A DNA stretch of 63,350 nucleotides, counting the filler, from Sanchytrium tribonematis (taxonomy: Eukaryota), in the NCBI GenBank assembly GCA_018985235.1. It is 18 parts of 18 records of this genome, joined end to end, with 100 filler letters (N's around TTAATTAATTAA, not from the genome) between each part and the next. Parts side by side here need not be neighbours in the genome. Positions count along the whole stretch, not along the records: positions 1 to 17,689 come from JADGIG010000121.1; 17 more parts are not named here. One strand, 5' to 3'. Numbering within the stretch: the stretch's first letter is position 1; the number at the start of each line of letters is the position of its first letter. The position numbers were made by a program, and so were the translations under genes. The notes below the pieces were generated by a model. That model had not been told where the DNA came from, ran no database searches, and worked only from the letters and a program-made list of their open reading frames with translations. Below are positions 2 to 59,816 of the stretch, piece by piece.

Positions 2-3000
2 TTTCTGGACAGTGATGTCAAATCCATTATAATAAATATAAATCTTGATGGTGGCTCGCGTGAATGTATGCCAGAACCAGATGATCAAGAACTTTCGTCA
101 GAGTGCATCATTTTTGATCAAATCCAAAATTTAGACTTGATCTCATTCAACTGCCGTGGAAATCCCAATCAGCTTCTGGACAAGGAGCTTAAAGAACTAA
201 TTGACAACCATAGACCGAGCATTATTCATCTAACCGAATTCCGTCTTAAAAAGCCTATCTATTTAAAAGGCTACAAATCTTTCCCAATGCCATTTTCTCA
301 TGAAGTGGACCGACAAATTCTCTATTGCAAGAATTACATTGAAAATGTTACTATCGTCAGTAATAGCACACATAAATTTGCACACACGATTAAAATCAAT
401 GATGAATATTTTACATTTTCGTATTTACCTCCCAGAATCCAACAAATGGATGATATTTACAGAGAGCTACAATTTGGAATGCGTCACAAGGCCTACATAG
501 TAGGCGATATAAACAAAAAGGTACCTGCTTTACAAAATGGCCATGATCGCCATGGCAGATCATTTGAGAGTTTTATGACGAACAATTGCTATGAACCAAT
601 AAACACTCCAATGGTTCCCACCATGACTCAGGGTGGGAATATACTAGACCAATTATGGTCACATAATGCACAATCTTTTAAAATTTCAAGTTTTAAAGTG
701 TTAAATGACAGTAGAACATCATCTGATCACTTCCCAATATCTTTCTCTGTGGACTTAACTAGTACTCTCTTTGTTCCGCGCTCTATTAAATGGAATAGAC
801 TCAAACATGACTCTGATTCTCAAGACTCATTAAAGAAATATCTAGACAAAAAGCATAAATTGATATTAAGTGAAATCGATACTCTGGATGTAAATGCTAT
901 ATGGGAGAGATTCAAATCTAGTGTAATTAGTGGTGCTGTAAAGTGCCTGGGCAGTGATGGTGTACTTGATGGGAAATTGATGAATGAGAAAGATGAGTTG
1001 CTTTTAACTTGGAATACTAGAAAGAAGAAATTCAAAGCTCAATTAAGGAAAGCGAGAACTGGAAGCACTCGCAGTACTAATCTTAAACGAAAAATTAATG
1101 AATTGACGAAGAAAATCACCAAATCACAAAAAAAGATGAGGACAAATGATTTTGACAAATATTTAAATAAAGTGGGAGGGTGCCAATCACGAGCCTACAT
1201 TGAAATGTGCAAGCTCCGATCAAATACTAATAGACAGCAGCAGAATTTCAAATGTGATCTAGAAACTACTATTCAATTTCATAAAGAACACTTTGAGAAC
1301 CATCATTCCAGATGGCCCACTCTTCCAACAGCCATTGATCAAGTAACATACACAGCTGCTCAAGAAATATTCAATATTGACTCGGTAACTCATTACTTCA
1401 AAACCACCAATTCTCAAAAGATCTCAGGAGATGAAATTCCCTCTTTGTTGTATAAAAATCTTCCAGACTCTAGCTATTTACTACTGCAACATCTATTTAA
1501 ACAATGCTACCTACTGAATCAGCTTCCCAATCAATGGCAGACATCCCGTATAATTGAGATATTCAAGGATGGGGATTTTGGAAATCCTTCAAGGTTTCGT
1601 CCAATAAGTTTGCTTTCCACTTGTTTTAAAATCATGCAGCAGATGATTTACTTCAATTTCTATCGACTCCAAATATTCAATAATATATCCAATAGACAGC
1701 ATGGCTTTATCCACAAGCGCAGCTGCTCTTCTCAAATTTATTCTGTTTTAAAACAAATTGATCTTTTTAATGCTGATAATGGTAGTGTCTACTGTTTGTC
1801 ACTGGATTTAAGTTCAGCATTTGACACAGTACCGCACTCTGTTATATTTGAGCATTTAAAACCCATTTTGAAACCACATGATATAAATATTCTTAAAAAT
1901 ATCATAACTAATCAAAGAATGACATTGCGAAGAGATCATACTCAAACAAGTATTGGGATGGGTAGAGGAACACCTCAGGGTGGTACTCTCTCCCCAATAC
2001 TTTTTGCTTATGTGATGGACCAAATTATTCAAAATATACCAGATTCGCCAAATTTTACCATTCATCTCTATGCTGATGATATTATTGTCATTTGTAGGTC
2101 CTACAATGAACTAGTTACTATTACTAATCAAATCAATGCATTACTGACTCAATATGGCTTTAAAATTAATATTACAAAATATCAATTTATTACAAATGAT
2201 GACTCAGTCGAATCAATTCAACTGGATGATGAAATATCAATACCAAAGCAAGAGTATTTGAAATACTTGGGCATGTTTTTAGATGCCAATGGTATTCATT
2301 ATGAGAAGGATATTCAAATGAAATTGGCTAAATGTAATTTTGCAATCTCCACGATCAGCTGGACTAAACAGTACTTACAATTTAAATCTTCATTTCATCG
2401 CTTTTACAAGGGCGTTATCTTACCTATATATTGCTATGGCATTGAAAATTATAATCAGTATGGGCGTGAACAGCTTGAAATTCATAGAAAATCCATTATA
2501 AAGAAAATCCATTCGAATAAGTACAGATATTATCAGTATTTGCATAATTATGTTGACATAGAACACCAATATGCCATTAAATTATTTGCATTTAATGATC
2601 AACTAGAGAATTTGGGACTTGCACAAATTCCGTGTGCTTTTGAATCTAAAAAAGATGTATATTTGGATAACGAGGCATTGATGGCAAAAGAATGGGATGA
2701 ACAGCCACAGAGTTACAGAAGCAGTCATTTCAAAACATCTGATCAAATCATGATCCTTGCAAGAAAAAAGAATGTTGCACATTTGCAACATCTATTGGAC
2801 TCATTTCTGACTGGAACAATGCCATTGAAACCCATTAAAAACAAGAGAGTTAAATGTAGATATTGTAATCGAGATTTCCAGAACTTGGATCATTACAGAG
2901 ACTATTGCAATGGGGAATTGCCATTTTACATCTCCAGAAATAGTATTTATAGAAATTTAAAGTCTAACTCTAAACAAGTCATCTATAAACAGTTGAAATT

Positions 3001-3043
3001 TCTAAAAAACTGTGTTTATTCAGTGTATCAGTCTATGCATTAG
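2..3043 (+). mobile_element. Non-LTR retrotransposon (LINE) ORF: APE endonuclease + reverse transcriptase + C-terminal CCHC finger; intact, 5'-partial
   Basis: APE motifs SFNCRG, LTE, VGDIN, LD, SDHFPI. RT motifs FRPISLLS, QHGF, LDLSSAFDTVPH, GTPQGGTLSP, YADD (2069), KYLG. Finger CRYC-x7-H-x4-C. The frame is open from position 2, upstream of the ATG at 68. Confidence 0.95.
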
Positions 3044-6289: not shown

Positions 6290-7880
6290 TCAAACAGAAA
6301 GACTTGATGTAATTGTGCTTGTAAATTTTATCGTTTCAGTATTGTTGCCATTAAATAATCCAGTGTACCATATACCAGAATCATTATTTTTAAATAGCAT
6401 TAATTTCGGCTGAACAGTCCCACTACCTATTAAGTAAGCAGCTAATCCTGTCGCGGCAGTTAAAAGTATGTTTAAATTATTACCATAATGTTGAATTGTT
6501 TTTAAAAGACTTGATTTTCCACTTCCTGGGCCTCCTTGTATAATAAATCTATTATGCGTACTATTTAATATCATATTAAGTGCGTAATATTGATCTGGTG
6601 ATAAATTCAGAATAGGAGTGTATGAATTATTAGGAGAATGTAAACTGTACATAGACATTCCTTCGGCCTCTTCAAATCTATTGCAATAAGTATCAATTTG
6701 ATTGTCCATAAATATGTCATCTGCATCTGCATCTAATTGTCTTATTCTAGATATTGGTAAAAGAATCCGACTATAAATCATACTGGAACAGCAAGCTATT
6801 CGAACAATTTTTGTGTCGAACATAGTTACTTTTTGAGACGTCAACAAATGAGCTAACTCATGTGTAGTATAAGATCTAGTTTCTAAATATCGAGTAATTT
6901 CATCTCGATTATCAAGATGAACATTGTAAGGTTCTTCCTTAGTGCAGTATTTGGTAATTTATTTAGCAAAAATTTCGGAAGTCACAATTTTGATGTCCAT
7001 ATTACTACCCCGCATTTTTAAAATATCAGAATTGTAAGAGTTAATCAAGACATCTGCTGCACTTCTTTTTAAAACGGATCTTTGAAAATCAAAAAAACTT
7101 TCTGACGATACAATTTTGGTATTATTAAATCGACATCTTGAGGTGCCATTGAAGTACAATAAGCTCCACGGGAATAAACAATGTAAAATAGCATTGGATC
7201 GTCATTATAATCAGGAATACCACCACTAATAGAATTTAGTAAATCTGTAAAAAGCATTTCTGAGGAGACATTTGTATCGTTTAACCATAGAAATAAATGA
7301 CAATGAACAGTACCCCTATGTTGAAACTCGTATTTCCTAAAGTTATGTTTAATGGCATATCCACTATATCCATTAGTGGTAATAAATTTGATCATTTTGT
7401 TGATTCGTTCGCAACAATAATTATTACTTAGAACTGGATTTTGGACATACCAAATGCTGTCTAAATTTTCTCCTAAACCATTTAATTGTTTCGAGTTTAA
7501 ATAGAATGTATACAAAGGGTTATTATTTTTTAAGGCCGATTTGACTCTTTCATTATTCACGAATTGAAAATTGTTGTAGCTACTATTTATACCTATTAAA
7601 CCACTTAAATCACGCCAGCAGTCCCAATTTACGCTTAGTTGACTTTGCCCTAAGTATGACATATAATCTCTATTTGAAGGACAAGCGTATTGACCATATA
7701 GTTTAATAAATCTTAATAAGCTTCTTGATCATTGAGATTGATTAATTCATTTGGAATTTCATCTAAATGTATTGGAACGCATCCATTCCTGCATTTCCAA
7801 GTAAATGGTATTTTTTCATAATTAATTTTTACAGCGGTCTTCTTTTTTAAAATATTACAATTACTACACAAAAAACAATT
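6290..7880 (-). mobile_element. Decayed Helitron/Helentron RepHel gene
   Basis: VKSALKNNNPLY. HUH Rep motif KYEFQHRGTVHCHLFLW. FAK*ITKYCTKEEP (YxxKYxxK with the first Tyr replaced by a stop). PIF1 Walker A IQGGPGSGKS and TAATGLAA. Frameshifted and internally deleted. Confidence 0.9.
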
Positions 7881-11000: not shown

Positions 11001-11204
11001 TTGAAAAATGAAACTAATTTGATTTTATTTTTTACAATCTCTGTAAAGAAGGTCAGAATCTGCTGTAAAATCACCATATTTTCTGTTATTTATAGTCCAA
11101 TCAATCATTAAAAAATTTAACAAAAATCCTTGCCGTAATAATTACGATCCAATTAAATGCATTCACAGGTATTTATGAAAAATATCTTCCCCATTCTAAT
11201 TGAG

Positions 11205-12371
11205 ATGAAGTTTGAATACGAGTCATTAATGAATCCCTCAAAACAACAAAAAGCCATCAGATTTGCCAAATTTCAATTCTTTAGGAACGCAAGATTGATT
11301 TCGTTGGTAATAATCTTGATATTTGGTTTCGTCGTATATCTCGCAACATCTGCAGCTGATACTGGTATTCAGACATCCAGCGAACCAACAATCGCTATGA
11401 TTCTTCCATACACAGGTGAAACTCCAGAATACGCAAAACACTTTTTTAAATCGGTCGAAAACAAGAAGATTGATTTCTATTTCGTTTCCACAGAAAATAA
11501 GACTGTGATTCCAGAGCAGCATCGTCACCTTTCCAATTTAAAGCAAATTTATTTGGATACTGAATTTTACGAATATGTTGCAAATCGTTTATGCCAAGTT
11601 TATACATGTACTGAGGAGGATAAACAGCGCATGGTTCAAATATTCAAGATTAGATTCCAAGTCAAGCATAATCTATCTGAATTGAAGACATTCAGCCCTT
11701 TTATTTTCAATGATTATTTAAAAGATTATGATTACGTTGGATGGACAGACGTCGATATTGTGTATGGTGATATCTCTATGCTGTATCCACACTTGAAATA
11801 TGATTTCATTACATTGACTATTGAATCTGATGTAGGCCTGCTTTACTTGCGAGGTCCGTTTACAATTATGCGAAACAGAATGGATGTTTTAAAGTCATTT
11901 AGCGAGTACATGTCTTTAGACTACTTTTTTAAGGTATTTAAGCCTACTAGTGACGTTAGCAAGATTGATTTAGTGCGAGAGGAAGGCGGGTACTCGAAAT
12001 ATATCGTCAAATCCAAATATTCAACTGCATTTCTGCCATTTAGGTCGGGTTTCTATAGTTGCAAGAAACTCTTGCATATTGCTGGTCATTTGGAATGTTT
12101 AGATTATAAAAGCCACAAAAAATTTAAGCCATTTGTTGCAAAAGATCCCCTAGTTTTGGATTTGCCAGATGGAATTGTCAAGAAATGTAATATATTTTGG
12201 GTCCCGAAAGAGGACAGAATGTGTATAAGAGCACCGTTCGGATTCACATTCACTAAAGATGGCCAGGCAAAGGTTTATAAGCAAGATAATCCTGGTAGTT
12301 ATCATAAAACTCCTTTACTGCATCATTACCAATTTCACAAGGACAAGTTTGAAATGGACTTTGTAGAGTGA
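11205..12371 (+). CDS. DUF6625-like putative glycosyltransferase, type II membrane protein (copy 1)
   Basis: N-terminal TM, then IAMILPYTG..PEY..FFKS, LSELK..F..YLKDYDYVGWTDVDIVYGDI (DxD). Likely start MKFEYES; an upstream in-frame ATG exists at 11157. Confidence 0.75.
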   Translation: MKFEYESLMNPSKQQKAIRFAKFQFFRNARLISLVIILIFGFVVYLATSAADTGIQTSSEPTIAMILPYTGETPEYAKHFFKSVENKKIDFYFVSTENKTVIPEQHRHLSNLKQIYLDTEFYEYVANRLCQVYTCTEEDKQRMVQIFKIRFQVKHNLSELKTFSPFIFNDYLKDYDYVGWTDVDIVYGDISMLYPHLKYDFITLTIESDVGLLYLRGPFTIMRNRMDVLKSFSEYMSLDYFFKVFKPTSDVSKIDLVREEGGYSKYIVKSKYSTAFLPFRSGFYSCKKLLHIAGHLECLDYKSHKKFKPFVAKDPLVLDLPDGIVKKCNIFWVPKEDRMCIRAPFGFTFTKDGQAKVYKQDNPGSYHKTPLLHHYQFHKDKFEMDFVE

Positions 12372-12649
12372 TGAGCACTACTACATTAATAAAGTAATTT
12401 TTATTTGAATTTCCATAAGAAGAGTTATTTTCCTTTACTACAATTTATGGATTTCAAATTTTGCAAAAATTCCAATTTCCGACCCTTAATTCTCGAGAGG
12501 GTAAATGATTTAGCGGCATTGTTTGTATTTTCTGTGAGCAATATACATTAACCAATCAAACTAAACAACAATACTTGCCCGAATAATTACGATCCAATTA
12601 AATGCCTTCACAGGTATTTATGATTAAAATCTTCCCCATTATAATTGAG

Positions 12650-13817
12650 ATGAAGTTTGAATATGAGTCACTAATGAATCCCTCAAAACAACAAAAAGCC
12701 ATTAGATTTGCCAAATTTCAAATCTTTAGGAACGCAAGAACAATTTCATTAGCAGTTGTTTTGATATTTGGATTCGTTGTATATCTCGCAACATCCGCAG
12801 TAGATACTGGCATTCAGACATCCAGCGAACCGAGAATCGCTATGATTCTTCCTTATACAGGTGAGCCTCCTGAATACGCGAGATACTTTTTTAAATCTGT
12901 CGAAAACAAAAAAAATGGATTTCTATTTCGTTTCCACAGAAAATAAGACTATCATACCAGAACAGCATCGACATCTAACCAATTTAAAGCAAATTTATTT
13001 GGATACTGAATTTTACGAATATGTAGCAAATCGATTATGTCAAGTTTACACCTGTACTGAAGAGGACAAACAGCGCATGATTCAAATATTCAAAATCAGA
13101 TTCCAGGTCAAGCATAACCTATCCGAGTTGAAGACATTTAGCCCTTTTATTTTCAATGACTATTTAAAAGATTATGATTATGTTGGATGGACAGACGTTG
13201 ATATTGCGTATGGTGATATCTCTATGTTGTACCCACACTTGAAGTATGATTTCATTACTATCTCAGTTGAGTCTGATGTAGGTATGCTTTACCTGCGAGG
13301 GCCGTTTACAATTATGCGTAACAGAATGGATGTTTTAAAGTCATTTAGTGAGTACATGTCTTTAGACTACTTTTTTAAGGTATTTAAGCCTACTAGTAAA
13401 GTCAGTGAGACAGAATTGGTGCGAGAGGAAGGCGGGTACTCGAAATATATCGTCAAATCCAAATATTCAACTGCATTTCTACCATTTAGATCAGAAACTT
13501 ACAGTTGCAGAAGAGTCATACATATTACTGGTCATCTGGAATGCTTAGATTATAAAAGCTCTAAAAAATTTAAGCCATTTGTTGCAGAAAATCCTGTAAT
13601 TTTTGATTTGCCAGATGGAATCGTCAAGAAATGTAATATTCACTGGGTTCCTAAAGAGGATAGAATGTGTATAAAAGCACCTTTCGGATTCACATTCACT
13701 AAAGATGGCATAGCAAAGGTATACAGACAAGAGAATCCCGGTAGTTATCATAAAATGCCATTACTTTATCATTACCAATTTCACAAAGCAAAGTTTAGAA
13801 TGGATTTTATTGAGTGA
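12650..13817 (+). pseudogene. Tandem DUF6625-like paralog (copy 2) with a +1 frameshift in an A8 run
   Basis: Colinear with copy 1, including the upstream region. AAC-A8-TGGAT at 12905-12920 versus AAC AAG AAG ATT GAT in copy 1. Otherwise open to the stop. Confidence 0.7.
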
Positions 13818-14439
13818 TTTGATAGACTAAATCAGTAAAGAAATCGTCATTCTCATGCCCCATTTTTGGTACTTTATGGCAATATTCTAAATACGGCAAA
13901 TCATAATTTCCCTCACAAATGTCATCATAAATTACAAATTCGTCAGTCATCTGCATATGTTGGAGTACAAGATGTACTGGCTTCCTAATCCAATTGGTAA
14001 TATGATAAGTGTCTTTGAGTACTTTTTTTCGTGCATCGTAAATGTCAAATTCCTCTTCGTCCAATTCTGAAGATTGAAGCAAATTTTGGGCTTCTTTTTC
14101 ATATTTACTGTGTTCAAACCACGTACCAAGTTCATATTGTGCCAATAAATCTGCTTCTGGGTCATTATTTCGGCGTAATAAATCCATCAAGGTCAAATCT
14201 AAAAAATCATCAAATTCATAAATTGGCGCATTATTTGATTTAAATTGAACATTTTCAAATTTCGAAATGGTATGCATGCCCAGTGTGATAAATGCGACAT
14301 CATGATTCTTTTGTAAGTCGTAAAACTTTTGAAAATCATTTCTTAAATAATACGAGTCATTTTGATAAACGCCAATAAATGTGTCATCTACATCAAAAAA
14401 GACTATTTTACATATTAAGATTGATAAAAGTATAAACAT
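13807..14439 (-). CDS. HAD-superfamily phosphatase-like protein with short hydrophobic N-terminus
   Basis: IVFFDVDDT (motif I DxD), FITLG (motif II), K, VIYDD (motif IV). 3' end overlaps DUF6625 copy 2 by 11 nt. Confidence 0.65.
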   Translation of the reverse strand: MFILLSILICKIVFFDVDDTFIGVYQNDSYYLRNDFQKFYDLQKNHDVAFITLGMHTISKFENVQFKSNNAPIYEFDDFLDLTLMDLLRRNNDPEADLLAQYELGTWFEHSKYEKEAQNLLQSSELDEEEFDIYDARKKVLKDTYHITNWIRKPVHLVLQHMQMTDEFVIYDDICEGNYDLPYLEYCHKVPKMGHENDDFFTDLVYQITQ

Positions 14440-14523
14440 GAGGATGGATGTGGACTATTTGACATTTTAAATAAGTGATTGCGACATTTGATCAGCTGGA
14501 TATTTCAATGATGCAAATATAAG

Positions 14524-14606
14524 CCAATCACATCTCATCTTTCTATTCGCCAATCATCTCTCAAAAAACCCATGATCCAATCAAATTACTCAAATCTCCT
14601 TTATAA
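14524..14606 (+). promoter_or_regulatory. H3 promoter: three CCAATC boxes and a TATA-like element
   Basis: CCAATC at 14524, 14550 and 14577 (26-27 bp spacing). TTTATAA at 14600, about 30 nt before the ATG. Confidence 0.55.
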
Positions 14607-14630
14607 TTCAATGATGCCCAAACTTCAAAA

Positions 14631-14987
14631 ATGGCAAGAACTAAACAAACTGCACGTAAATCTACTGGTGGTAAAGCACCAAGAAAACAATTAGCCACAA
14701 AAGCAGCTAGAAAATCAGCATTAAGAGAAATCAGAAGATATCAAAAATCCACTGAATTACTAATCAGGAAATTACCATTTCAAAGATTAGTGAGAGAAAT
14801 TGCACAAGATTTTAAAACTGATTTAAGATTTCAATCTTCTGCTATTGGTGCTTTACAAGAAGCATCAGAAGCTTATCTCGTTGGATTATTTGAAGATACA
14901 AATTTGGCTGCTATTCATGCTAAAAGAGTCACTATTCAAGTCAAAGATGTTCAATTGGCTAGAAGATTAAGAGGCGAAAAGGCTTAA
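14631..14987 (+). CDS. H3: Histone H3 (fungal-type core) lacking residues 30-47
   Basis: Canonical [16 protein letters not shown] joins directly to [14 protein letters not shown]. 118 aa versus 136 aa. SSAIG and TNLAAIHAK are fungal-type. Confidence 0.95.
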
Positions 14988-15234
14988 TAAATTGATGTTC
15001 ATATTATTTAATCTTTTGATAATCACGACGAGAAACATTTCGGCATTCCGGGGCGCATTTCTAACGGGTAAACAGATTAGCTTGCCTCAGCTTGCAAAAT
15101 CTTGCAAATCGCGCTCAGAGTTTACCGTATCTCTCATTGGTTCCATCCAAATTATATATATTACCAAACTCTGTTTACATCTATGTAGTTTAACAGATTA
15201 CAACATAAAAGGAGGAGATTCCCATAAATATAAG

Positions 15235-15879
15235 ATGATCTTCTCACTCCCAATTCTAGCGCTTCCAAATGACTCGCCTACAGTCACTCCTACAGATGGA
15301 TTTAGTGGAATCTTTAGACAACACCCATACAAATCCTACACAATGACCCATTCAAATCAAGCATTTACTGCTGCGAATGGAGTTGTTACTTGTAGTGCAG
15401 GAACAGTTCGGAATATTACTGCTGCAGATTGTGAAGGCAATCCAGTTGCTGCTCCAGACGTATACTCTCTTGATTTTTATGGAGAGAGCATCTGTTTGGT
15501 TGATCAATCAGGCGAATTATTTTGCGGAACAATTGGAGATGACGGAAACTTTTCTGTCGGTAAATTGGAAGTCAAGTACGGGAATGATGAAATCAATGTG
15601 ATTGATGTGAGATTATCTCAAGATGAAACTTATCCGTTTATGTGCGTCAAAGATACAAAAACAGATGTTTACTGTAAACATCTTGATCCTGAACCCAAAG
15701 CCACATGGATTTTATTGAAAGGATTGCAAGGTAAACAAATTGATACGATTCAAGCCAAAGACAACAAGATCTTTGCGCATAGTGCCACTCAAAATCAATG
15801 GATGAGTATCAAATTTGACAAAATAATCAATCAAGATGTCGGAAGCCAATATGCTGCAGTCGAGTCAGCCCCTCAATAA
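15235..15879 (+). CDS. Secreted tectonin-like beta-propeller (putative lectin)
   Basis: Short hydrophobic start MIFSLPILA. Repeats ICLVDQSGELFC and MCVKDTKTDVYC..W..L.G..I..I. Confidence 0.5.
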   Translation: MIFSLPILALPNDSPTVTPTDGFSGIFRQHPYKSYTMTHSNQAFTAANGVVTCSAGTVRNITAADCEGNPVAAPDVYSLDFYGESICLVDQSGELFCGTIGDDGNFSVGKLEVKYGNDEINVIDVRLSQDETYPFMCVKDTKTDVYCKHLDPEPKATWILLKGLQGKQIDTIQAKDNKIFAHSATQNQWMSIKFDKIINQDVGSQYAAVESAPQ

Positions 15880-15927
15880 ATTTATGAAATTCTTTTTTTT
15901 GACGTCGCTTTTTGAAACATTTGAAAA

Positions 15928-17674
15928 ATGTCTACTCCATGTAGTATTATTCAAACTACTCTATCAGCAGTAGGATATTACTTACAGCCAGATGTGAATT
16001 GTTGCACCAATAGCAATTTTCGATTAACTTGTGATTCAAACAGTCAAATCACAGAATTAAATTGGTCCAATATGAATTTATTTGGATCATTACCATCCAA
16101 TTTAGCAACAATTAGCACGTTAATCAAGGCAGATTTTAATGGAAACAAAGGGTTAACCAATTTTGACTCATTCTCAACATCTACTAGTTTGACATGGCTA
16201 GATATCTCAAATACAAATAGCCAATTGACTAAAATTCCCAATTCATTAACTACATTATATATGCAATCTAATGGTGTCACTAGTTTCTTATCTAGCACAT
16301 ATTGCCCAGTCCAACTAAAAGTATTAGATATTTCTGATAATCAAATCACTTCAATTCCTTGCGCATGGCCATTAACTGCATTATATGCACAGAATAACAA
16401 ATTGACTAGTACCGCAAACACGGCAGTAAGCACCATAAAATACTTGGATCTCTCTTTTAATAAATTAACAACCATTTCGAATGCACCATTAAATGCATTA
16501 GAATTGGCGTATCGTGGCAATAATTTGAATGATCTAGGGAGTATTTGTCAAGCTAGTGGAATGGTCTATTTAGATGTTGGTAAAAATTCAATTTCGACGA
16601 TCCCCGAGTGTTTAAACACGAATTTATTGGGATTGGCTGTAGATCATAATGTAATTAGTGATTTGAATACAAATACGACATTTTTATGCACTCATCAGAA
16701 AGTATCCTTTATTAATTTGGATAATAACATGTTAAATCGATATCCACAGTGTATGAATCATTTAACAGATATTGCGATTATTGGCAATTTAATGACCATT
16801 ACAAGTGATGGTATAGCTTCTACAGTCACTAAAAAAGGATTTACTCGATTTGTGGATATTCCAGAGACATACGACACCAATTCAACTGTATTTTCAAAAA
16901 CAACTTCTAAATATGCCAATAATGCCAATATTCCTACTACAGCACACTCAGATGTTGCAACAGATGCACCAGTGACTACGCAACCTAATTTATATACGAC
17001 AGATGATCAAGATGTGATTATTTTGACTAGAAATGTTGGAGATGAACCTGTTTCAACGAGTTCTATTTCTCCATTTGGAGTTGGAAATGTGCAAGAATTG
17101 CTATTTAATAAATCTGCAGGCGACCCATCTGCCTTGTTGGGTATCGCTTTAATCTGTTTTATGGTAGTCACTGCTGTTGGATTTCTAGTGACTTATTTGA
17201 TTCCTAGATTAAAAAGTAATGTGCCATTTTTATATGGAATTGCTGCTCATATTGGGTTGATTTTGGGTGAATTACATAGTTTTAGTTCATTTAATTTTGG
17301 TGTTGCTTTATTTGAAATGGGTAATTTATTTTAATCAAGGTTTTAGCATTGTTTTATTCAATAATGCATTTTTGCAATATTTTAGAAATCCACTCAAGGG
17401 TAATTCTATGAAATATATGATTGTGACATGTGTATATGGTGCATTTATAATTGCATTGAGCATGGGATTGTATTTTGGAATGTACCAATTGCAAGGAACC
17501 ACAGCTACTTGGTGGAAATTACTAACCGTGGCATTGAGTGGATTTAGATTGGTCGGACTATTGGTCTTTCTTTTATTGACCATGGAAAAAGAGAGCATGA
17601 TCAGAAACAGAGATATGATCATTTATTGCGTTTTAAATGGATTTGACACAATTTTATTGGCTGTGACATCTTGA
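15928..17674 (+). CDS. LRR ectodomain + Thr-rich stalk + about 6 TM receptor-like protein; join(15928..17320,17340..17674)
   Basis: Cys cap (C..CC..C..ITEL), many LxxLxLxxNxL repeats, hydrophobic helices. A 19-nt intron fuses two ORFs into 575 aa. Confidence 0.8.
17321..17339 (+). other. 19-nt spliceosomal intron
   Basis: GTAATTTATTTTAATCAAG. Removal gives FEM-G-FSIVLF and completes a TM helix. Contains an in-frame TAA. Confidence 0.75.
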
Positions 17675-17789
17675 TTGATTATTTTGTCANNNNNNNNNNN
17701 NNNNNNNNNNNNNNNNNNNNNNNNNNNNNNNNNTTAATTAATTAANNNNNNNNNNNNNNNNNNNNNNNNNNNNNNNNNNNNNNNNNNNN

Positions 17790-18214
17790 GGGTAATTTAG
17801 AATGCGAAAATAACGATCCGCACCTTGGAGACACATCCTTTTTGCAACATTTACATCGCCACAAATGACCATCAGGCTTTGATTTGTGCTTGATCAGGGT
17901 CATCGAACCATGCGTAAAGTTGTGAGGACATGTCATATTGACTGCAAAGATCCCTACTCTTTGTAAAATGAAAAACAATTCATCTGAATTGTGCAATTTC
18001 AAAATTTCAGGAATAGAATTCAAAATGGCTATGTCGTGTTCAAATGTGAAATATTCAGAAGTAGAGGTCATGAAGCAAGTGTTTGGGAAGGGACTTGAGC
18101 AATATTGAAGCATTTGCGACGAATAAAACATGTGATTTATTTTTCGTTTCATTTTTAACGTGCATGTCTCAGATTGTTTTAAATATGTAGATGGCTCATT
18201 CTAGACACATACCC
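17790..18214 (-). mobile_element. Merlin/ISXO2-like DNA transposon 5' end (copy A, cut by contig end)
   Basis: Near-identical to 59391-59815. Zn-ribbon CPHN..WRCKCCKK..S.R.GS.F..SKLP. Shared terminus GGGTATGTGTCTAGAATGAGCCATC. Confidence 0.85.
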
Positions 18215-18265
18215 AATTGGCAGACTTTGTTACATTGCTAGATTATGACAGTGTCGCTGTGATGG

Positions 18266-58867: not shown

Positions 58868-59815
58868 CTACTTCTCCTGTCGCCACAACTCCAATGTTAT
58901 ATTCTGTGTATGGATATTGGGATTTTCGGGATCGACATAATTTTCGGCATGATTAACTTTAAAATGAACATATTTGTCGTCATAATCAATCCAATCGTAT
59001 GACTTATACGAGTCTGAAAAAATTGTTGAATTTGGCGCAATACACTTTCTAATAAAATACTGCATAGTAGAAGATTTTCTATTGAGCACTGGCATCATTA
59101 TTATTTGTTTCTTGCAGCCAGGTTGTGGATGCCTTTCAATAAAACCAAGTATCCAAAAGGTACATTTTAGTCGACCTCTATTAAACTTTCTTTTTCTCCA
59201 AATAGCCTCGTCTACTTCAATTTCACCCTCAAGAGGCTTAAATAAAACTCTAATTGCCTGCTGCATGTATTCTCGCAATTTGGCAAAAAATAATGAAACC
59301 GAAAATCTATGAATTTTTACATAATATGCCGACTTTTTTATATTCTCTCTTGCAAAAAACAGATTCAGTAACATGCAACATTTCCATATTGGTAATTTAG
59401 AATGCGAAAATAACGATCCGCACCTTGGAGACACATCCTTTTTGCAACATTTACATCGCCACAAATGACCATCAGGTTTTGATTTGTGCTTGATCAAGGT
59501 CATTGAACCATGAGTAAAGTTGTGGGGACATGTCATATTGACTGCAAAGATCCCTACTCTTTGTAGAATGAAAAACAATTCATCTGAATTGTGCAGTTTT
59601 AAAATTTCAGGAATAGAATTCAATATGGCTATGTCGTGTTCAAATGTGAAATATTCAGAAGTAGAGGTCATGAAGCAAGTGTTTGGGAAGGGACTTGAGC
59701 AATATTGAAGCATTTGCGACGAATAAAACATGTGATTTATTTTTCGCTTCAATTTTTAACGTGCTTGTCTCAGATTGTTTTAAGTATGTAGATGGCTCAT
59801 TCTAGACACATACCC
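58868..59815 (-). mobile_element. Merlin/ISXO2 (IS1595-like) DDE transposon (copy B), C-terminally truncated
   Basis: EIEVDEA..RK.NRGR..WILGFIER, PV.NR..T...I...I..DS.KSY, VNH..NYVDP..HTQNI, then an early stop. GG terminus at 59815. Confidence 0.92.
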
Positions 59816-59816
59816 A

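What the first reader, a model, noticed from the sequence alone, without database searches (positions are those of the whole stretch)
14631..14987. Histone H3 with a precise in-frame loss of residues 30-47 (no K36/K37, H39-R42, or start of helix alpha-N)
Seen: ...AAA TCA GCA|TTA AGA GAA... with the junction at 14720/14721. 18 codons (canonical PATGGVKKPHRYRPGTVA) are missing, while the rest is near-canonical, codon-biased and has an intact triple-CCAAT promoter. Known: K36 is the Set2 target, and residues about 37-45 pass between the DNA gyres at the entry/exit site. Inference: either a real shortened variant making looser nucleosomes that cannot be K36-methylated, a recent Ala-to-Ala microhomology deletion, or an assembly/amplification artefact among multicopy H3 genes.
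Basis: partly seen in the sequence, partly recalled or inferred. Interest (0 to 1): 0.7.

Follow-up and report, generated by a model that had tools for sequence, protein, structure and literature searches.

The report
Shortened spare histone H3 copy
One histone H3 gene in this fungus-like genome lacks an internal stretch of 18 to 20 amino acids, while sequencing data that match this DNA also hold H3 copies with that stretch, so it is likely a recently broken spare copy or an amplification error rather than a new kind of histone.

Summary
The in-frame gap is in the window: a 118-aa H3 joins A29 to L48. It is not the only H3. In run X1, the one run holding this DNA, a 247x contig carries the missing RYRPGTV codons, a 66x paralogue has 60 extra bases, and none of 18 laid contigs bridges the junction. 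A 138-aa protein (P0046) matches all 118 residues and has 20 more, so the loss may be 20 codons. All 7 listed coding differences from the majority copies are synonymous: no variant-specific change, no decay. The junction was found in no other protein or metagenome searched. It removes Y41 and T45, each lethal as alanine in yeast (PMC7308085). The same contig ends in an inverted join that X1 does not support. X1's contigs also lack this copy's own SNPs, so they cannot separate a real recent deletion (about 0.50) from an amplification or assembly artefact (about 0.43). A selected short variant is about 0.06. Low interest; raw reads would decide.

The parts
14631..14987 (+). Histone H3 ORF, 118 aa, intronless, with an internal in-frame gap (canonical residues 30-47; 20 residues against P0046)
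14715..14723 (+). Junction (codons S28, A29/A47, L48); 2-nt overlap at 14718-14719 against the majority copies; bridged by no laid X1 contig
14524..14581 (+). Three CCAAT boxes; three X1 contigs with other upstream DNA resemble the window from 14524 on (shared promoter module, inferred)
14621..14933 (+). Copy-specific alleles: 2 listed in the 5' leader (14621, 14626) and 7 synonymous coding sites (14642, 14760, 14792, 14879, 14909, 14918, 14933); a tenth difference is counted but not listed
15816..15840 (+). Template arm of the inverted contig end
17665..17689 (-). Contig end that is a perfect 25-nt inverted copy of 15816-15840; the 92x X1 contig leaves at 17669 into 130 other letters (5-nt overlap; likely chimeric join)
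17690..17789 (.). Artificial linker (44 N, 12 nt, 44 N) between concatenated contigs; the window holds 18 contigs

Best explanation
This is one of several near-identical H3 genes, and this copy (or one haplotype of it) has likely suffered a very recent 54-60-nt deletion that would leave a damaged spare protein, while the cell likely runs on the intact copies. Shown: the gap is in the assembled DNA; X1 holds copies with the missing codons at high depth; the copy's other listed coding differences are all synonymous. Inferred: an ordinary end-joining or slippage event at a 2-nt overlap made the gap, and it is too young to have gathered decay. Predicted from yeast data: the unchanged histone fold would still bind H4, but nucleosomes carrying it would hold entry/exit DNA loosely (R40, Y41, R42, G44, T45 gone; R49, R52, R53, K56 kept) and would lack K36 on that tail. 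With this gene as roughly one of four or five H3 genes the effect would be diluted.
For: Intact copies: the 247x contig runs upstream of 14718 into 21 letters coding RYRPGTV; the 66x paralogue has 60 extra nt. At the 3' branch the window's flank has 69x and other flanks 170x. 7 of 7 listed coding differences are synonymous, P about 3e-5 if neutral, so the copy was under purifying selection until recently and the gene body is not noisy consensus. The window runs without a break through copy-specific alleles on both sides of the junction, and 5 of the 8 X1 pieces shown (all in the flanks; 321, 117, 448, 190 and 2129 nt) match with 0 differences. Short direct joins are rare in MDA: 11 of 475 chimeras, about one per 950 kb (PMC1855051). 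Histone genes turn over by duplication and loss under protein-level purifying selection (PMC5880237 passage). One K36 per nucleosome is enough to silence cryptic transcription in yeast (PMC5626479 abstract).
Against: No X1 contig holds the junction (0 of 18 laid). The same contig ends in a join that X1 does not support, so this assembly admits rare junctions. Depth bookkeeping fits the window's alleles at full locus depth (62-70x) only if the family total is about 300x; with totals of 239-261x it predicts 195-222x against 247x observed, which favours a minor or rare source (weak, contig depths are noisy). No frameshift, stop or promoter loss marks it as a pseudogene.
Confidence: 0.5

Rival explanations
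1. The junction is not in the cell. It arose in whole-genome amplification or library PCR as a short direct chimera, and the assembler threaded it through a multicopy gene because it made a unique path.
For: 0 of 18 laid X1 contigs bridge 14718-14721, and the 247x contig passes the rejoin point without a break. The contig's last 25 nt are a perfect inverted copy of DNA 1.8 kb upstream with a 5-nt overlap, unsupported by the 92x X1 contig; only 1 of the 36 contig ends checked has a match of 13 nt or more elsewhere in the window. That is the commonest MDA chimera form: 85% inverted, mostly under 10 kb, 2-21-nt overlap (PMC1855051). The discordance falls in the one collapsed repeat of the laid stretch. 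Depth fits a minor source slightly better.
Against: All of the copy's SNP alleles are also missing from X1's contigs, and these contigs are graph-simplified and lossy (PMC12424806 passages), so absence of the junction proves little. Direct joins under 10 kb are 2.3% of MDA chimeras. A rare edge would have to beat the true path inside a contig, not at a tip. Depth over 13820-17689 outside the gene is fairly even and two haplotypes keep about 2:1 on both sides. X1's library method is not on record.
Confidence: 0.43
2. A selected short H3 variant that makes loosely wrapped, K36-free nucleosomes, working like short H2A variants or like the frayed DNA ends of CENP-A nucleosomes. The shift would place K9 at canonical position 27 and K18 at position 36.
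For: Frame kept; promoter CCAAT boxes and codon bias intact; 0 of 7 coding differences change a residue, which a still-working gene would also show. The shift equals the K9-K27 spacing exactly, so ARKS 7-10 lands on canonical 25-28. R49, the residue that matters most for wrapping in simulations (PMC4365049 section 11), is kept.
Against: No residue of its own outside the gap (118 of 118 equal P0046). No other carrier: 0 matches to the degenerate junction pattern in JGI metagenomes and IMG/VR, 0 of the 204 other proteins held. Y41A and T45A are lethal in wild-type yeast; R40A, K42A, G44A and V46A are lethal with rsc1 deletion (PMC7308085 Table 2). Frame retention has a 1 in 3 chance.
Confidence: 0.06

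Closest known systems
Damaged copies in multicopy core-histone families (birth-and-death evolution; PMC5880237 passage citing Rooney et al. 2002)
   Same: Several genes with identical protein and synonymous DNA differences; one copy carries a lesion.
   Different: The lesion keeps the frame and no second lesion is seen, so it is not a demonstrable pseudogene.
P0046, 138-aa H3, named Sanchytrium tribonematis (EukProt) by its source
   Same: Identical at all 118 residues, including the unusual C-terminal end; the only 100% match among the 120 listed hits for residues 70-118.
   Different: Has 20 more residues between A29 and L48, with K36, K37, H39-R42 and the start of alpha-N.
MDA chimeric junctions (PMC1855051)
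   Same: Short overlap at the join; an inverted join of the classic form ends the same contig.
   Different: The H3 join is direct and very short-range, the rare class (11 of 475); amplification of this DNA is inferred, not on record.
Short H2A variants (H2A.B/L/P/Q; PMC5880237) and CENP-A (PMC4365049) as loose-end nucleosome variants
   Same: A protein lacking residues 30-47 is predicted to loosen entry/exit DNA.
   Different: Those are conserved across species, diverged in sequence and expressed; this copy shows none of that. Its tail and histone fold are canonical, not CenH3-like.
Scattered gapped H3 database entries (e.g. P0038 Polypedilum, P0040/P0042 Funneliformis, P0041 Xenopus)
   Same: 21 of the 120 listed hits are short H3s with in-frame gaps of 4-22 residues within canonical 25-53.
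   Different: None has this junction; clusters hold 1-3 members; taxa are unrelated. Four pairs share breakpoints with each other. Probably gene-model errors or broken copies (inferred; their DNA was not checked).

Membership tests
Canonical/H3.3-type histone H3 | Histone-fold domain (Pfam PF00125) | tested here: met
   E 8.1e-39, 133 bits against cut-off 26.4
Canonical/H3.3-type histone H3 | Canonical N-terminal tail, residues 1-29 | tested here: met
   identical to PDB H3.3 chain residues 1-30
Canonical/H3.3-type histone H3 | K36/K37, DNA-contact residues 39-45 and complete alpha-N | tested here: not met
   absent; present in X1's majority contig and in P0046
Bona fide histone variant (short-H2A-like) | Same form kept at the orthologous locus in related species or isolates | tested here: inconclusive
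   0 junction matches, but no related locus could be fetched: the lineage-motif scan gave 1 unrelated contig
Bona fide histone variant (short-H2A-like) | Variant-specific amino-acid signature beyond the lesion | tested here: not met
   118 of 118 residues equal P0046; 0 of 7 coding differences non-synonymous
Bona fide histone variant (short-H2A-like) | Expressed and incorporated into chromatin | not testable with these tools
   needs RNA reads or proteomics
CenH3/CENP-A | Divergent N-tail and altered loop 1/CATD (features recalled, not from a call) | tested here: not met
   tail and fold align without change to H3.3 and fungal H3
Histone pseudogene | Stop, frameshift or relaxed selection | tested here: not met
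   open frame; 7 of 7 synonymous; fits only a very recent lesion
MDA chimera | 2-21-nt overlap at the join | tested here: inconclusive
   2 nt at the H3 join, which chance gives in 27% of cuts; 5 nt at the contig end, 1% by the same count
MDA chimera | Junction rare among reads, few start points | not testable with these tools
   X1 is kept as contigs only

The most novel reading that the evidence does not exclude
An early-diverging fungus keeps, under an intact histone promoter, an H3 whose tail is slid in by exactly one K9-to-K27 period: K9 sits where K27 was, K18 where K36 was, and the residues that clamp entry/exit DNA are gone. It would be a natural loose-wrapping, K36-free H3 variant lacking two positions that are essential in yeast.
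Probability: 0.06. Interest if true: 0.7.

Novelty: new member of a known kind. Interest (0 to 1): 0.12.

Why it matters
As a broken spare copy or an artefact it matters little, except as a warning: a fragmentary eukaryote assembly can put a striking 'histone variant' into a protein database (this exact 118-aa sequence is in EukProt). If it were expressed and kept, it would show that a eukaryote tolerates H3 without residues 30-47, including Y41 and T45, and would give a natural test of how entry/exit contacts and K36 marking can be dropped. None of the 10-or-fewer library searches run showed such a variant (listings only).

Tried and rejected
Whole genome: none held, so H3 copies and Set2 could not be counted in the assembly; Set2 is untested. 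No second H3 lies in the window. No RNA holder listed. Splicing or retro-copy origin: the readable ends of the missing stretch do not give GT..AG in any register allowed by the 2-nt overlap (my reading; the middle of the stretch was not seen); rejected. Gene-model error: rejected, the gap is in the DNA itself. Repeat collapse at the junction: no repeat of 18 nt or more there. Lineage-motif scan of metagenomes: 1 hit, a GC-rich divergent H3-like gene with introns, unrelated. AlphaFold2: pLDDT 49.7 for the short protein (one helix 18-47) and 50.6 for the intact control, which did not give a reliable fold either; not used. Depth as a test of the deletion: a 62x deleted haplotype would move the 247x mean by about 5, not measurable. 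Bacterial promoter/terminator scan: chance level and not apt for a eukaryote. Paper searches for systematic yeast H3 tail deletions gave nothing usable; 'sanchytri' with 'histone' gave 1 classification paper, listing only. Earlier scan findings: none in this genome, none by words, 8 by sequence on unrelated histone genes.

Full report
Observation. The ORF at 14631-14987 encodes 118 aa, matches Pfam Histone and aligns to solved H3.3 in two blocks, 1-30 and 46-136. The gap is in the DNA, not in a gene model. CCAAT boxes at 14524, 14550 and 14577 and strong A/T-ending codon use are present. The window is 18 contigs joined by an artificial linker; the gene lies in the first contig (1-17689), about 2.7 kb from its end. 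No whole genome is held and the window has no second H3.

Organism and the intact protein. A search with residues 70-118 listed 120 of 3189 passing proteins (7992 scored). One, P0046, was 100% identical. It has 138 aa, equals the window protein at all 118 positions and has 20 more residues between A29 and L48. Its source names it Sanchytrium tribonematis. I infer that the window comes from that species or a close relative; the next hits are chytrid and other fungal H3s at 94% or less. The loss is thus 18 codons against canonical H3 and 20 against the only intact H3 with the same C-terminus.

What the sequencing run shows. One run, X1, holds the stretch (0.91 of 463 words; contigs only; library not on record). 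It may be the window's own source and is not independent support. Laid on 14200-15400, 18 contigs matched and 8 of 19 pieces were shown. A 198x contig follows the gene to 14719 and leaves with 6 other letters. A 247x contig covers 14718-14992 and runs upstream into 21 letters coding RYRPGTV. A 66x contig is a diverged paralogue (39 differences in 267 nt; 0 residue changes in the 20 codons listed) with 60 extra bases at the same place. The mean depth of the bin around the junction, 266.2, is reproduced exactly by these three records alone, so none of the 18 bridges it. At the 3' end the window's flank has 69x and other flanks 170x, which suggests about three near-identical loci plus the diverged one (inference; contig depth is not a copy number). 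Intact H3 with K36 is therefore present and dominant.

Why that does not settle the junction. Outside the gene, 5 of the 8 pieces shown (20 laid) match with 0 differences, and a second haplotype at 27-32x appears on both sides. Inside the gene the window differs from the majority contigs at 10 counted sites, 9 listed, and at most of them no laid contig has the window's letter. The whole copy-specific path is missing, not only the deletion. Logan contigs are simplified, lossy consensus paths (PMC12424806, two passages). Minor paths survive in the flanks at depth ratios of 3.0-3.5; in the gene the ratio would be 3.4-4.8 or more. A removal threshold near 4 is recalled, not from a call. Depth bookkeeping leans slightly to a minor or rare source for the window's alleles but depends on an uncertain family total.

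Selection. All 7 listed coding differences are synonymous; 23% of possible changes are, so P is about 3e-5 under neutrality. The copy was constrained until very recently. It shows neither decay nor any residue of its own. The overlap at the join is 2 nt against the majority copies, which 27% of random cuts would give.

Signs of chimerism nearby. The contig's last 25 nt are a perfect inverted copy of 15816-15840, the only such end among 36 checked. The 92x X1 contig matches to 17669 and goes on into 130 other letters. An inverted join 1.8 kb apart with a 5-nt overlap is the typical MDA chimera (PMC1855051, parts 1-2 of 4 read). So this assembly likely admits rare joins. The same paper finds direct joins under 10 kb in only 11 of 475 chimeras, about one per 950 kb, which weighs against an MDA origin for the H3 gap itself.

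Other carriers. A degenerate DNA pattern for the junction found 0 matches in JGI metagenomes and 0 in IMG/VR; no positive control was run for these scans. The junction peptide is in 0 of the 204 other proteins held; these are the best-listed hits of two searches that scored about 8000 candidates each, not the whole database. Against my reading, 21 of the 120 hits are short H3s with in-frame gaps in the same region, and four pairs share breakpoints. They are clusters of 1-3 members from unrelated taxa, none with this junction, and the search favours such entries; I take them as gene-model errors or broken copies but did not check their DNA. A scan for this lineage's H3 motif gave one unrelated contig, so conservation at the orthologous locus is untested.

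How the protein would behave. The histone fold is unchanged, so H4 binding is predicted. Lost are K36, K37 and residues 39-47. In yeast Y41A and T45A are lethal and substitutions at 40-45 lower DNA end-to-end FRET to 52-72% of wild type, P43A excepted (PMC7308085, passages and Table 2). R49 is kept (PMC4365049, abstract and section 11). One K36 per nucleosome suffices against cryptic transcription (PMC5626479, passages), so a minority short copy could be buffered. The shift moves K9 to position 27 and K18 to 36; I treat this as coincidence. Structure predictions were uninformative for both the short and the intact protein.

Comparison with known systems. It is an H3 by fold and tail but fails the K36/alpha-N feature. 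It would work like a loose-end variant if expressed, but fails or cannot be given the membership tests of true variants: conservation, own signature, expression (PMC5880237, passages). It is not CenH3. Searches (listings only) showed no description of such a variant; the library lacks most subscription papers, and no supplements were read.

Verdict. Observation confirmed. Recent deletion in one redundant copy or haplotype 0.50; amplification or assembly artefact 0.43; selected short variant 0.06. The first two cannot be separated without raw reads, and both are ordinary. Interest 0.12.

Noticed in passing
window 17665-17689 and 15816-15840: The contig ends in a perfect 25-nt inverted copy of upstream DNA that the 92x X1 contig does not follow; likely an amplification chimera kept by the assembler.
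   Followed up: yes
window 13865-13903, 14233-14281, 14398-14454, 15411-15540: A second haplotype at 27-32x against 62-76x, with clustered differences, on both sides of the gene: heterozygosity, mixed isolates or a duplicated segment.
   Followed up: partly
window 11157-12371 and 12602-13817: Tandem pair of DUF6625-family genes, 87% identical; the second has one extra base in an A-run near 12907 that shifts the frame. Not checked against reads.
   Followed up: partly
window 68-3043 and 6290-7662: A 991-aa reverse-transcriptase ORF (LINE-like, inferred) and Helitron-like fragments (PIF1, Helitron_like_N, below Pfam cut-offs) in the same contig.
   Followed up: no
window 14778-14822: A 124x X1 contig matches only this 45-nt part of the gene with long unlike DNA on both sides; possibly a further, more divergent H3-family gene such as CenH3.
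   Followed up: no
window 14631-14720: The gap equals the K9-K27 spacing, so the ARKS motif at 7-10 lands on canonical 25-28 and K18 on 36; probably coincidence.
   Followed up: partly
window 13807-14439 (-) and 14995-15879 (+): The two neighbouring ORFs (210 and 294 aa) have no Pfam family and are single-member clusters.
   Followed up: no
P0046: The intact H3 has a two-residue insertion after S28-A29-P30 (138 aa), as do several fungal H3s in the hit list; its source contig name carries a k-mer coverage of 0.49.
   Followed up: no
window 17791-18215 and 59391-59816: A 426-nt stretch shared at 97% by two different contigs, probably a transposon piece.
   Followed up: no
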